In this document: one piece after another, positions 1,172-63,065 of the stretch
How positions within the stretch are numbered: the stretch's first letter is position 1
Layout: each line of letters opens with the position of its first letter
Assembly (NCBI RefSeq): GCF_036588685.1
Contig: NC_086373.1
Location: forward strand, 106,454,001 to 106,518,000
Length of the DNA: 64,000 nucleotides
Direction: 5' to 3'
Source: Mytilus trossulus
Taxonomy: Eukaryota
Translations under genes and position numbers: made by a program
Notes under the pieces: model-generated
What the model saw: only the letters and a program-made list of their open reading frames with translations
Databases searched by the model: none
Told to the model about the DNA's origin: nothing

Positions 1172-4100
1172 TCAGTGCACCCCAGCTGCTCTATTTTGAA
1201 CAAACTGTCGATATATCAATGTCACATAAATAGCTAACAATAAAATAATAAAGAAATCGTCAAGAAATCCTAAGACACCAAACACAGCTTCTGGTATTAT
1301 GTCTAAAGGTGAAATAAAATAAAGTAAGGCAGCGAGAAAACACACAATCACACGTAAACGAAACATCCAAATTAATCCTCCAACCGTGAAAAATTCATTG
1401 TAAGTGTGTCTAAGTAATGTTGGAAGGTCTCTTATATAATCCATCAACTGAAATAGAAACGTAAAAACATGTTATTCTGGGTATGGCTCTGATGAAAAGT
1501 GAGTTTATAAATATACAGTAACATCATAGAATAGTAAAAACATGTTATTGTGGGTATGGCTCTGATGAAAAGTGAGTTTATAAATATACAGTAACATCTT
1601 CAGCAACATTCATTTACTGTGACATTGGTTTTAAGAACATCAACTCTAAATATTTCATTTGTTGATTCTTTGATGGATTCAAACTTGTAGTCTAATTCAC
1701 TAACCAATGATATAGGCCAAATAATAACTTTTTTGTTAAATAAATTTATTAGATGTCAGTTTTTTGGGGGAATTTTAATACATAATGTGCAATTATAAAT
1801 AGTTAATACTTTATAATAATGATAAAAATAATAATTATTTGAACTTACAGGTCGAGGAGCACCAGAAAATCGTCTATTATATTCATTAACTCGTGTTGAA
1901 ACATTTCTCTTTTCTTCTGTTTCATTATTATTTTCTTCTGGCGTAAAATTCACCAGCAGGAGTGTTACCTGAAAATATATCAAGCAATAAAATCCTCAAA
2001 GATTCATGAATTTGACAGCAGCAGTTAGAGAATATGCTTGTCCTTGACCTTTAGTGCAAACATGAAACAAGATTTTGAAATTCGTCTACCACAGTACTTT
2101 TTAAATTAAATATTTACATACCATAACTGGTTTGAGTTATTATTCTTGGAGATTTGAAGGAATAAGAATGATTACCATAATACTACCGACAGCAGAAAAT
2201 AAGACAAGAACAATACAGTTTTGCTTAAATCTGTTTCATTTAGACTTTGTTATATGTTGTCTTATTGGCATTTTTACTATAACTCCATATTCTATATATA
2301 AAGTGGTTCAAAAATCTTAATTTTTACAAACAAATTGAATTCAGAATCAGATGGTTCTGTTTGTAGTTTTATTTAAGTCTAAGTTTGCAAGGATCCCATA
2401 TACCAAATATAGTTATTCTATTTCTCATAATATATTAAGAGGGAAATTCACACACCAGTTTGTTTCGGCAGTTCTGAACAATGGAGATGTGGTCAATCAT
2501 ACTAGACATATGATGGATGGAAACCTTATAAGGCATCTGTATACAAGGTAAGAAGCATTTTAAAGTCTTCTATCCTCTGAAATATAAAGCCCTATACAAA
2601 TTGCTTACACTGACAACACTGCCAGATAAGTAGACATATGTCTTCCATTCTGCAACTATTGTTGCAAACAAGACAAAGCCATGCAAAAAGTAAAGTTTAA
2701 CAATCAATCCCATCATTTCTTTTAAATATGTGATAAATATTTAACCCTGATTCTATAACAAACACAGTCAATCAAACTACTATAAGAAGAGAAAAGTAAA
2801 AACACAAAAATACTGAACTCCGAGGAAAATTCAAAAAGGAAAGTTAAAAATCAAAAGGCAAAATCAAAAGTCCAAACACATCAAACGAATGGATAACAAT
2901 AGGTCATATTTCTGACTTGGTACAGAAGGATCACTAAGGAATTTTTCACCTGAAGATTTTATGTGACAAAATGAGCTGCGTCGGATGGAAATCAACTGTT
3001 CAAAACAGACCAACACATGAAAAATTCGTCTTTGATTTTGATTTCAATGTTCATAAATCTGACAATGAAAGTCTTACTCATATACATGAATACTTCCCCA
3101 ACTTGCATACGATCGATTTCTATCCAACACAGCTCAAATCAAGGAGATATAAGCTCATGAAAAGAGACAACCTTAAGTCTATAGATGAAATCATGAAAGC
3201 ATTATGACAATTCAGCATTTAAAAAAAAAGAGTCATGAACCTTTAACCTTAAAGTAAAACCTTGAACTACATTCAGATCTTAATTTTATAGTAAGGAACC
3301 TTTATCTTTATAGGTTAGGAATTCTTTGACCTTTACTAACTGAAAGTACAGAGAATAAGAGACTTTTTTTAAACTCATTCTTGTGTTTTAGCTGAACTGA
3401 AATTGAAATGGTGTAAAAGTTTATCTAAGAGCTGTGTAAGTACAGCCATGAGCCATTATGGAGTAAACTGATATTTTACCTGTTGTCTACAGACAGGACA
3501 AGCTATAGCTCCCAACCATCTACTACCATGCTGCCAATATGTAACTATACAAATACCTGAAAATAATTAAACAGTTTCTTACTAGTTATTGCCCCAACCA
3601 ACTACTATCTTGCTGCCAATTCGTAACTATAAAACATAAATACTATTCTATACTGTACATTTGCTGTGTCAACAGCAGGTAACATATCTTTACATTTTTA
3701 CTGTCGAACAGCAGTTTCATATAACTTTACATTTGTTCTGTCAACAGAGGTTTTACTCATTGTTGAAGGCCTTACGTTGATCTATAATTGTTAACGTCTT
3801 TGTCATTTGGTCTCTTGTGGAGAGTTGTCTCATTGGCAATCATACCACATTTTCTATTATAGATATAGGAAGATGTGGTGTAAATGCCAATGAGACAACT
3901 CTCCATCCAAATAACAATTTAAAAATTAAACCATTATAGGTTAAAGTTATGTTATATTTGTACTGTCAACTGCAGTTCACAAAATTGTACATTTGTGCTG
4001 GCAACAGCCATTCCCATAACTGTACATTTTTACTGTAAACAGCAGTGCCCATAACTGAACATTTGTACTGTCAAAAGCAGTTAACAAAACACATAGCTCT

Positions 4101-5369
4101 CCATATTTGTACTGTCAAAAGCAGGTCACATAACTGTAAATTTTTCCTATCAACAGCAAAGCAGTTACTGGTAGTCTATTCTTACCACAAAAACAATGGC
4201 CACAATTTGTTTCTACCCCATACTCAGCATTATTTAGACAGATTGGACAGGTAGCACTCCCATCATTGGCATTACGTCTGGGTAGTTGTTGCTGTGGATG
4301 ATCATGCCCAATTACCTCCCTTGTAGCAGTGACGCTGGCAGCACTGTCAGGATGGATCCTCAATAAACCTTGTCTTTGGCTGCAAATATTTTACCTTATT
4401 AATTTTTTTTATCTTTACTCTGAAATATGAACAGATGAGTTACTGTCTATCTTTGTTGGTTTTTTTTTAACTGTACATTACTTAGTTGTAAAACTTGTGT
4501 CTCATCAGTTGTGGTTTTTTTTTAGTTTTGGTCCATAATATGTTTCTTCAATTATGCTTGATGTTTGCTTTATTTACAGTGGCAAATATCTCATCCATGT
4601 CAAGGATGAAAAAAAGTTAACAGTTTGTATAATTGGTACAGCCCCTGGCACTCTATACAAGAGGCATTAGATTTATGGTCCCCATCCTGGCATGACTTGC
4701 TGCACATTTATACTTCCCCATGGCCAAACAAATGTCCCATTTAAGCAAAGGTTTTACTAACTGTGAGAGTTGACCATAGGATTACATATTTATATACCTT
4801 CAGTCAATCATTTGCAAATATGATTTTTCTAGACATGTATATTTCTTCTGACAATTATTTCAATCTTGCTTTACAGTTAATATCTTCAACTATATTTTTT
4901 TCCCAAAAGTTTAAATAAATGTGTCTTTTTGTTAACAATAAATTGATCTCTTATATTAAGACCTTGGGACTATTTTTATGCCTGCAAAAGACATTAAGTG
5001 TTACCTTTGACCCTCTTTCTGTCCATCCGTCCCATTTCAGTTTCAGACTTTAACTTCAGTTTTTCTCATCAAAATTATGTTATTTTGTAAGTCAATATCT
5101 GTTTTTTATACTGCATTTATTTATCAGAATTAAAACGACTTAATTTGACAACAAAACATCATCTCAATATCGGCAGGTATGTAATTATTGGTAACGACAT
5201 GGTGGTCACTCATCTTAATATCATCAGATAATAGACCAGTGGTAACTCACCTTAATCTGATCAGGTACATGACCAGTGGTACTATAAGGGCAAGAAGAAC
5301 AATAAATGCATATATCAATTCATCACCAATACCTTCTACCATTGTAGCTTTTCTAAAATATCCACCCAT
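1172..5369 (-). CDS. RNF170: RING finger protein 170, ER-membrane E3 ubiquitin ligase (261 aa, 5 coding exons)
   Basis: Minus-strand exons 5369-5251, 4379-4186, 3556-3480, 1968-1849 and 1447-1172, all GT-AG, total 786 nt in frame. N-terminal VEGIGDEL plus a hydrophobic TM segment; C3HC4 [62 protein letters not shown]-terminal DUF1232-like [22 protein letters not shown]. These are all RNF170 hallmarks. Confidence 0.95.
1453..1597. repeat. 72-bp tandem duplication abutting the RNF170 last-exon acceptor
   Basis: GTAAAAACATGTTATT.TGGGTATGGCTCTGATGAAAAGTGAGTTTATAAATATACAGTAACATC at 1461 and 1533. Confidence 0.9.
3650..4170. repeat. Degenerate about 37-bp tandem repeat in an RNF170 intron, interrupted by an interspersed repeat
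   Basis: Recurring ACTGTACATTTGTACTGTCAACAGCAG; an insertion at about 3750-3945 contains two inverted GCCAATGAGACAACTCTCCA cores. Confidence 0.75.
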
Positions 5370-61600: not shown

Positions 61601-63065
61601 TCTAACACTTCTCCAGAACACATCTAACACTCATGAATACATCTAACCCTCTCAAGAACACATTTAAAACCACTCCTGAACCGTCAAACACTTCTCCAGA
61701 ACATATCTCACACTTCTCCTGAACACATTTTACACTTCTGAACACATTTTGCACCACTCTTCAACACATCTATCACTTCTCCTGAACACATCTTTAACAT
61801 CACTCCGAATCACACCTCACACTTCTCCTGAACACATCTTTTACATCACTCCAAGGACGTATAACTAACATCTAATATACGTCCTTGATCACGCCTAAAC
61901 ACATCAAACATCACTCCTAAACACGTCTAACACCTTTCCTGAACACATTTTACACCACTCTTTATTACATCATACACCTTTCCTGAACACATCTTACATC
62001 ACTCATGATCCCATCTAAAACTTCTCTAGAACACTTCTAATACTTCTGAACACATCCAACACTTCTCCTGAACACATCCAACACTTCTCCTGAACACATC
62101 CAACACTTCTCCTGAACATCCAACACTTCTCCTGAACACATCTAACACTTCTCCTGAACACATCTAACACTTCTCCTGATAACACACCTGACACTTCTAC
62201 TTCTCCAGGAACACACCTGACACTTCCACTTCTCCTGGACACATCTAACACATCTAAACACATATTACACCACACTCCTGAAAACATCTAAAAAACTCAA
62301 TATAACGCTGTTTCTGTCAATGTAGTAAATAAATGATTAAATAACGAAGACCAAAATTGAAAAAAAACACTCTTGAAAGACGAAAATCATCCGATACAAT
62401 TTTATTTCATATGCCAGTAATAAATTAATTCTTGAAAGCTACTGTCTTTTGGCACAGTGTTAATATCACACTGTTGGAACATGTCATATTGTGAAGACCA
62501 ACTTGAATTTTGTTTCTTCTCTAAAATGTGTAATGCAGAATAATTTTCGACTGTCAAATTAAATCATTCTAATTATTTTTTTCAGATGACAATATCTATG
62601 AAGATTACTCAGGTGCTATTCGACGTCCAGAGAAAAATAGTAAGTATATAATACACACAAAGTACCAACAGACAATAACAAGACAAACAATATTCATCAC
62701 AGCATTAAATCGAAATATTAAGATTTAGCGTTACGAACCTCACATAAACCTGGGTGTCAACATGTTACAACCCATCATTGTGATGAACCAATATGAATAC
62801 ACTCTGCGTCTGAGAAAAGGGGGACAAGATGTGTTAGACTAACATAGGGAGACGGAAATGATGATTGCAATATAATGGGTACCGACAAGTTCTATGTAAC
62901 ACGAATAAAAAGATGTATAATAACTGACAAATAGTACTTTATTATGCGATCAATTTGTTTGCTATTCAGAAATCAATTGCTGAAATAATTTATTTGAATT
63001 GTTTTACAGAACAATCCGTTGGTAGAAAACTTCTACGGAGACTGTCCAAGAGAGGGAAGAGGTGA
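58623..63065 (+). CDS. THEMIS-like protein with two tandem CABIT domains (696 aa, 4 coding exons)
   Basis: Exons 58623-60421, 61205-61386, 62586-62639 and 63010-63065; 2091 nt, phases consistent. CABIT1: FTLKDFTECFTPPKTFKV..LRVGDSLYLH..YTTVGELLEAWP..KGERF..LECEDESGHILTLPGNCRGDF..YNLQEIV. CABIT2: LNEFIDNFELDLPVIARI..LSPGTEVIIHR..RILAS..GKFDKCSRRFNSV..LKCGDIL..IKLP. Domain call is from remembered family motifs. Confidence 0.85.
61448..62290. repeat. Degenerate about 22-bp tandem repeat after exon 2 of the CABIT gene
   Basis: Recurring AACACATCTAACACTTCTCCTG with strong CA/CT strand bias. Confidence 0.9.

What the first reader, a model, noticed from the sequence alone, without database searches (positions are those of the whole stretch)
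1453..62290. Tandem repeats are repeatedly anchored at splice junctions
Seen: at least 11 unrelated tandem repeats or duplications start within about 60 bp of, or overlap, a splice site. These are all four RNF170 coding introns (1453, 3510/3592, 3650-4170, 5202), HOOK exons 4, 6, 7, 12 and 16 (13867, 15167, 15833, 21328, 23752), the SAM-A acceptor (44297-44916) and CABIT exon 2 (61448). Units are 22-87 bp, share no sequence, and extend into the intron. Inference: a mutational process focused on exon borders (e.g. repair or slippage at nucleosome, methylation or R-loop boundaries) rather than transposition, and a possible route to intron growth and new splice sites.
Basis: partly seen in the sequence, partly recalled or inferred. 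Interest (0 to 1): 0.7.

Follow-up and report, generated by a model that had tools for sequence, protein, structure and literature searches.

The report
Exon-seeded "mirage" repeats in mussel genes
In this mussel, short DNA pieces straddling exon edges are copied head-to-tail into the neighbouring intron about 2.5 times more often than random placement predicts, mostly in CpG-poor (likely methylated) genes; this repeat type is known from lancelets as "mirages", and the few junctions checked are spliced normally.

Summary
The repeats are real. Of the 11 named, 5 contain a splice junction, 5 end within 30 nt of one and 1 lies 62 nt away; they occupy 3, not 4, RNF170 introns. They are 'mirage' minisatellites, described in amphioxus and human F7; this scan has noted them before in this genome and in other invertebrates.

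New here is the test outside the window. In 1,005 independently annotated introns, 50 of 161 non-transposon arrays cross a junction against 20 expected (21.5 within gene, 28.3 within own intron). The excess replicates (11 vs 4.3). It is strongest for 61-120-bp units and deeper into the exon, and breakpoints are not fixed at the splice site, so the repeats are exon-seeded rather than splice-site-anchored.

The excess was seen only in CpG-poor genes (49 of 943 introns vs 1 of 178), but this is threshold-sensitive and confounded with gene family. RNA-type contigs use the terminal splice site at both arrays checked, and copy number differs between alleles.

Best reading: DNA-level tandem duplication biased to exons of methylated or germline-active genes, filtered by selection. 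No new splice site was shown.

The parts
1453..1598 (-). 73-bp x2 duplication ending 5 nt before the last RNF170 acceptor (1447); possible degenerate overlap with the exon
   Evidence: RNA-type contig X13 ends at 1447
3498..3656 (-). Degenerate ~82-bp duplication spanning the acceptor of RNF170 exon 3480-3556 (61 identities, 11 mismatches, 10 gaps)
3652..4158 (-). Degenerate 35-37-bp array ending 27 nt from the donor at 4185, split by an interspersed repeat at about 3790-3950
5202..5281 (-). 37-bp x2.2 duplication spanning an RNF170 donor (31 nt of exon); decoy GT not intact
13867..14141 (+). 27-bp x10.3 array starting 5 nt after the HOOK exon 4 donor
15158..15418 (+). 87-bp x3 mirage spanning the HOOK exon 6 acceptor; the last AG (15390) is used; another allele skips 15146-15277 and appears to have 2 units
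15834..15949 (+). 45-bp x2.6 mirage spanning the HOOK exon 7 donor; the first GT (15855) is used although the next decoy scores higher; extra units in other alleles
21328..21664 (+). 41-bp x8.2 array starting 9 nt after the HOOK exon 12 donor; only one other locus, at 70% identity, was found in the genome
23748..23813 (+). 35-bp-period duplication spanning the HOOK exon 16 donor (27 of 31 identical)
44289..44916 (+). 26-bp x24.3 array ending 8 nt before the SAM-A last acceptor; no match elsewhere in the genome search
61449..62256 (+). Degenerate 22-bp array 62 nt after the inferred CABIT exon 2 donor (61386); outside the enriched zone
1164..5368 (-). RNF170-like gene, 5 coding exons, CpG-poor introns (o/e 0.23)
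9175..29512 (+). HOOK gene, 21 exons, 704 aa, CpG-poor introns (o/e 0.35)
39082..45181 (+). SAM-A gene (no Pfam hit on its last exon; resembles SAM-B by eye), CpG-rich introns (o/e 0.93)
58521..63090 (+). CABIT-domain gene (5' end uncertain), CpG-rich introns (o/e 0.98)

Best explanation
These are 'mirage' minisatellites: short tandem duplications over-represented across exon edges, likely because duplications start more often in exon DNA of CpG-poor (likely methylated, germline-active) genes and likely survive only when the extra copy falls into the intron. Step 1 (excess shown, cause inferred): a 20-250-bp DNA-level duplication forms with one end in the exon, probably by fill-in repair of staggered breaks or paired nicks. 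Step 2 (inferred): wholly exonic copies are purged, while copies that include a junction leave the first donor or last acceptor intact. Step 3 (shown for two arrays): unit number changes between alleles. Step 4 (shown at two arrays, major isoform only): splicing uses the terminal site, so the decoys look neutral.
For: Crossing arrays 50 of 161 vs 20.0 expected under a TE-masked birth null; 21.5 within gene and 28.3 within own intron, all p<1e-4. Replicate set 11 vs 4.3. TRF-free k-mer ratio 2.3, 95% gene bootstrap 1.75-2.87. Excess rises with depth into the exon (beyond 60 nt: 13 vs 3.0; 10-30 nt: 10 vs 7.3) and peaks for 61-120-bp units (24 of 36 vs 6.6). Exon share of the unit is near uniform (KS p 0.09 and 0.34). 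Copies lie on the intron side; only 3 weak exonic arrays in 153 kb. CpG-rich genes show no excess (1 vs 1.7 expected); 0 of 96 new CpG-rich introns; interior array rates are similar in both classes, 14.2 vs 11.7 per 100 kb. Terminal-site splicing and allele differences.
Against: Naive nulls were ambiguous: 60 vs 58.8 with free overhang, 60 vs 41.6 with limited overhang. The CpG link is threshold-sensitive (exon o/e 0.35 and 0.40 and intron o/e 0.4 and 0.5 not significant), and 823 of 953 CpG-poor introns are dyneins; without them TRF gives 4 of 120 vs 1 of 178, p=0.16, k-mers 9 of 260 vs 3 of 336, p=0.037. Methylation was not measured. CpG at breakpoints is weak (4 vs 1.3, p=0.03, one of three tests). 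Arrays 0-30 nt inside the intron, which hold no exon DNA, are also in excess (25 vs 14.7), which exon seeding alone does not explain. Myosins alone are marginal (5 vs 2.2, p=0.06). Counts are overdispersed among genes (p=0.0006). No repair pathway was tested.
Confidence: 0.5

Rival explanations
1. Survival or detection bias: duplications arise uniformly, but those tied to an exon last longer or stay recognisable because the exon copy is conserved and intron interiors turn over.
For: Interspersed-repeat cover rises from about 10% near junctions to about 40% in interiors. Array identity is a poor clock under turnover. TE masking used only about 1.5 Mb, so it is incomplete.
Against: Arrays at least 90% identical are as enriched (30 vs 11.3) as older ones (20 vs 8.7); two-copy cases 17 vs 7.8. 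Ratio against the TE-poor 31-100-nt zone is 3.7. No excess in CpG-rich genes, whose exons are also conserved.
Confidence: 0.2
2. Homology-boundary errors: in a very heterozygous genome, inter-homologue repair starts in conserved exons and slips where divergent intron begins.
For: Alleles differ strongly in introns (14 differences in 179 bp). Units carry much exon sequence. Unchecked scan notes report mirages in other marine invertebrates.
Against: It does not predict the absence in CpG-rich genes. No relation to distance from contig ends among 19 dynein genes (rho 0.01). One exon checked was also divergent between alleles (6 differences in 84 bp).
Confidence: 0.17
3. Selection filter only: duplications fall at random and junction-spanning ones are simply tolerated.
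For: Explains the polarity and about 20-28 of the 50 crossing cases; fits CpG-rich genes (1 vs 1.7); the free-overhang null shows no excess.
Against: 50 observed against 20.0-28.3 under three birth nulls that already allow all junction-spanning positions. GC preference of interior units gives about 1.2-fold by my arithmetic from the bins.
Confidence: 0.07
4. Splicing-coupled or RNA-templated duplication anchored on the splice signal itself.
For: Excess 0-30 nt inside introns; donors with a duplication are slightly stronger (5.2 vs 4.4 bits, p=0.03) and outnumber acceptors 31 to 16 (p=0.04).
Against: Breakpoints do not coincide with junctions (8-108 nt of exon included). Splice signals do not act as microhomology for abutting arrays (4.9 vs 4.9 of 9, p=0.54, n=20).
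Confidence: 0.04
5. The decoy sites are functional splicing regulators, or the arrays are assembly artefacts.
For: Decoy GT or AG intact in 48 of 51; contigs drop rare isoforms.
Against: Intactness matches unit identity (45 expected) and period mod 3 is flat, 34 of 51 out of frame. Copy number differs between alleles; short-read contigs of run X6 span the 45-bp array without gaps.
Confidence: 0.02

Closest known systems
Amphioxus 'mirage' minisatellites (Adh3, troponin C, globins BflGb6/BflGb9, PGBD5). Passages read in PMC3087553 and PMC3902484; the original Canestro 2002 paper was not held.
   Same: Tandem unit spans an exon-intron boundary, at donors and acceptors; units 10-160 bp; decoy sites often intact; normal splicing; copy number differs between haplotypes.
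   Different: Here in a bivalve and counted over 1,121 introns against explicit nulls. The passages read call the mechanism unclear and give no enrichment test or CpG link. Half of the window's cases only abut the junction and are not mirages in the strict sense.
Human F7 intron 7 37-bp VNTR (PMC1557585, abstract read)
   Same: First unit spans the donor; downstream pseudo-donors stay silent and the most upstream donor is chosen, as at HOOK 15855.
   Different: A single locus studied for splice-site choice, not origin or frequency; donor side only.
Small tandem duplications from fill-in repair of breaks with complementary 3' overhangs (CST, Pol alpha-primase, NHEJ; PMC8355091, abstract read)
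   Same: Gives locus-unique head-to-tail duplications without a transposon; a candidate for the founding event.
   Different: Shown in mammalian cells at engineered breaks; the abstract does not mention exon or methylation bias; not tested here.
Intron gain by duplication of proto-splice sites (as discussed in PMC3087553 passages)
   Same: Duplicated splice signals are the raw material.
   Different: No decoy use or new intron was seen here.

Membership tests
Mirage minisatellites | Repeat unit spans an exon-intron boundary | tested here: met
   5 of the 11 named repeats; 50 of 161 non-TE arrays outside the window. Not met for the other 6 named repeats.
Mirage minisatellites | Duplicated (cryptic) splice signals in the copies | tested here: met
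   Decoy GT or AG intact in 48 of 51
Mirage minisatellites | Normal splicing at the terminal site | tested here: met
   Contigs of 2 RNA-type runs from one study join at 15390 and 15855; 2 of the 5 crossing repeats, major isoform only
Mirage minisatellites | Length polymorphism between haplotypes | tested here: met
   X1 contig skips 15146-15277; go-back joints and extra units at the 45-bp array in X1 and X6
Mirage minisatellites | Somatic instability | not testable with these tools
   Needs small-pool PCR or single-molecule reads
Transposon-borne or dispersed satellite | Unit occurs at other loci | tested here: not met
   No hit in about 1.5 Mb of other regions for 10 of 11 (18% of 3652-3751 overlaps an inserted repeat); genome searches for 2 of 11 found one 70% locus and none (the search skips common words)
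RNA-templated, splice-site-anchored duplication | Breakpoint coincides with the junction | tested here: not met
   8-108 nt of exon included, near-uniform share of the unit
Gene-body-methylation-linked mutation | Confined to methylated genes | tested here: inconclusive
   CpG o/e proxy only: 49 of 943 vs 1 of 178 at the antimode, not significant at lower thresholds, confounded with family
Intron gain by duplication | A decoy site is used in mRNA | tested here: inconclusive
   None listed in 2 contig sets, which drop rare forms

The most novel reading that the evidence does not exclude
Methylated or germline-active exons are hotspots of 40-180-bp tandem duplication in mussels (about 4-fold overall, about 9-fold for 61-120-bp units). 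Mirages are the surviving tip of a large hidden load of exon-internal duplications, and gene-body methylation explains why mirages are common in amphioxus, molluscs and other animals with mosaic methylation.
Probability: 0.3. Interest if true: 0.7.

Novelty: new member of a known kind. Interest (0 to 1): 0.42.

Why it matters
The repeat class is known, but its origin is described as unclear. The counts here show that it is more than tolerated random duplication and tie it, tentatively, to CpG-poor genes, which makes the origin testable with existing bivalve methylomes and long-read panels. If the bias is mutational, conserved exons carry an under-counted structural mutation load. In practice about 5% of introns in such genes carry intact decoy splice sites that could mislead gene models and intron-length markers. 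The contribution to intron size is small (3.5%).

Tried and rejected
Naive placement nulls: one lets long arrays overhang exons freely and shows no excess, the other caps overhang at 40 nt and shows p about 4e-4. Both misdescribe how arrays arise, so I replaced them with a null that collapses each array to one unit.

Splice signals as microhomology: rejected. Purging of decoy GT/AG or frame bias: not seen. GC content as the cause: too small, and abutting units are AT-rich. More copies in crossing arrays: no (median 3.1 vs 2.9, p=0.34). Chromosomal position: no relation. Terminal microhomology lengths could not be read reliably.

Laying contigs on 1000-20900 was swamped by interspersed repeats. 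The ABC transporter search gave too few loci and was not used. The SLC6 and P450 sample of CpG-rich genes is small (116 introns), which leaves the family confound open. Canestro 2002 could not be read.

Literature searches listed no genome-wide count of mirages and no methylation link. The library lacks most subscription papers and I read no supplements, so this is weak evidence of absence.
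Full report
Setting. The window is G000:C1:106454001-106518000 in a 1.30-Gb genome. Proteins 94-100% identical to its genes are labelled Mytilus. I mapped five genes by coordinates: RNF170-like on the minus strand, HOOK (21 exons, 704 aa without internal stop), two SAM-type genes and a CABIT gene (Pfam; SAM-A's last exon had no hit). All 31 introns used are GT-AG (checked after correcting two RNF170 ends). RNA-type contigs confirm three HOOK introns and end at two RNF170 acceptors. 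The other 26 introns rest on reading frame and splice signals.

Observation. All 11 repeats exist. Five contain a junction (3498, 5202, 15158, 15834, 23748), five stop 5-27 nt from one (1453, 3956, 13867, 21328, 44289) and one is 62 nt away (61449). They lie in three RNF170 introns, not four. Units are unrelated to each other and, for 10 of 11, have no hit in about 1.5 Mb of other regions. Genome searches with two of them found one 70% locus and none.

They are real DNA and variable. On 14950-16275, DNA run X1, which may be the source animal, has a second contig that skips 15146-15277, consistent with two units instead of three of the 87-bp array. It also has go-back joints and raised depth on the 45-bp array. 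Run X6 spans that array without gaps and shows an extra unit. RNA-type runs X7 and X12 (one study) join at the last acceptor (15390) and first donor (15855), and no decoy joint is listed. Contigs drop rare forms.

Independent test. Because the window was picked for this pattern, I annotated other genes. Sixteen dynein heavy-chain regions of 50 kb were aligned to protein profiles with a spliced aligner written here. It reproduced 18 of 18 introns given by a 98%-identical protein. I kept 678 introns identical in two passes, 507 of them with strong flanks. A replicate set of 3 dyneins, 5 extensions and 15 myosin regions gave 327 more. Introns that differed between passes were dropped.

The null matters. 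Moving whole arrays within their intron gave 60 vs 58.8 with free overhang and 60 vs 41.6 with limited overhang. An array grows from one unit, so I collapsed each to a single unit and placed it over all positions keeping at least 6 intronic nt, excluding interspersed repeats. Of 223 arrays (period at least 15, score at least 60) in 1,005 introns, 62 were repeat-borne and set aside. Of the other 161, 50 cross a junction vs 20.0 expected, 25 lie 0-30 nt inside vs 14.7, 8 at 31-60 nt vs 13.5. Discovery 39 vs 16.2, replicate 11 vs 4.3, myosins alone 5 vs 2.2 (p=0.06). Without any repeat masking, 39 of 155 vs 22.4. Within-gene and within-own-intron nulls expect 21.5 and 28.3; requiring more than 10 nt of exon gives 40 vs 15.1. 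A TRF-free 24-mer profile peaks at about 33 per 1,000 across donors and 21 across acceptors, against about 10 in interiors; ratio 2.3, gene bootstrap 1.75-2.87.

Anatomy. The excess is 2.3-fold for 15-30-bp units, 3.4 for 31-60 and 9 for 61-120 (24 of 36 vs 6.6). It is largest when the unit reaches deep into the exon. In 51 junction-spanning duplications (47 outside, 4 in the window) the unit holds 8-108 nt of exon with no fixed breakpoint. Decoy GT/AG is intact in 48, as unit identity predicts (45), and 34 periods are out of frame. Donors outnumber acceptors 31 to 16 (p=0.04). Copies go only to the intron side. Young and old arrays are both enriched, although before masking the old class was not (13 vs 11.1). 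The pattern fits DNA-level duplication seeded in exon sequence, not copying keyed to the splice site. The smaller excess just inside introns is unexplained.

CpG class. After a trend I added 116 introns from SLC6 and P450 genes; none has a crossing array. At exon CpG o/e 0.45, a cut chosen before these data, the counts are 49 of 953 vs 1 of 168 (p=0.004), with similar interior rates. CpG-rich genes match the neutral null (1 vs 1.7), CpG-poor ones do not (49 vs 18.9). Intron CpG o/e is bimodal, and the cut at its antimode, 0.6, gives 49 of 943 vs 1 of 178 (p=0.0025). Against this: lower cuts are not significant, most CpG-poor introns are dyneins, many CpG-rich ones are paralogues, and non-dynein genes alone give p=0.16 (TRF) or 0.037 (k-mers). 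In the window all five crossing repeats are in the two CpG-poor genes. In oyster, CpG o/e tracks measured methylation (rho -0.62), methylation is enriched in exons and it is lower in genes with variable expression (PMC3840415, passages; PMC2996979, abstract). Methylation and broad or germline expression cannot be separated here.

Mechanism. Shown: the excess, its exon-ward shape, polarity, allele differences, terminal-site splicing at two arrays. Inferred: more founding duplications in exons of methylated or germline-active genes, perhaps through paired nicks or staggered breaks filled in before joining (as in PMC8355091, abstract); loss of wholly exonic events; later unit turnover. I give this 0.5, survival bias 0.2, homology-boundary errors 0.17 and the rest less.

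Known or new. The crossing repeats meet the tested features of amphioxus mirages (PMC3087553 and PMC3902484, passages) and resemble human F7 intron 7 (PMC1557585, abstract). Earlier notes of this scan report mirages in this genome and at least nine others, one with a modest excess at exon borders (unchecked, not evidence); none matched a methylation query. My eight topic searches (listings only, no supplements) showed no genome-wide count or CpG link.

Verdict. A new member of a known kind. Interest 0.42, carried by the measured excess and the tentative CpG dependence.

Noticed in passing
window 46502-48597: 45-bp x41.5 array (98%) followed by an 18-48-bp array between the two SAM genes; not in any intron I annotated, possibly in a UTR intron; no hit in other fetched regions.
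   Followed up: no
window 63101-63231: 69-bp duplication starting about 10 nt after the predicted CABIT stop codon.
   Followed up: no
window 58521-58646: The first ATG frame of the CABIT gene has stops in its first 40 codons; the open frame from 58647 carries the domain, so the true start is uncertain.
   Followed up: partly
window 39082-45181 and 50809-54346: Two similar three-exon SAM-type genes in tandem, with alike C-termini by eye.
   Followed up: no
window about 8245-8370 and 8600-8725: Two similar stretches that look tRNA-derived by eye (SINE-like); no tool run on them.
   Followed up: no
window 15017-16275: High divergence between HOOK alleles in runs X1, X6 and X12, including 6 differences in 84 bp of exon 6; the decoy copies carry the other allele's G at the position matching 15407.
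   Followed up: partly
L126-L130 (G000:C3:86554701-86604700): One dynein gene holds 11 junction-crossing arrays in 55 introns, about four times the average; the excess holds without it (38 vs 15.5).
   Followed up: partly
L121-L125 and L173-L177: Large mirages in dynein genes: 109 bp x33.9 and 29 bp x88.8, each crossing a donor.
   Followed up: no
L224-L227 (G000:C11:63.63 Mb and C6:33.10 Mb): Two intronless P450 genes recur as near-identical pairs on two contigs: segmental duplication or retained haplotype.
   Followed up: no
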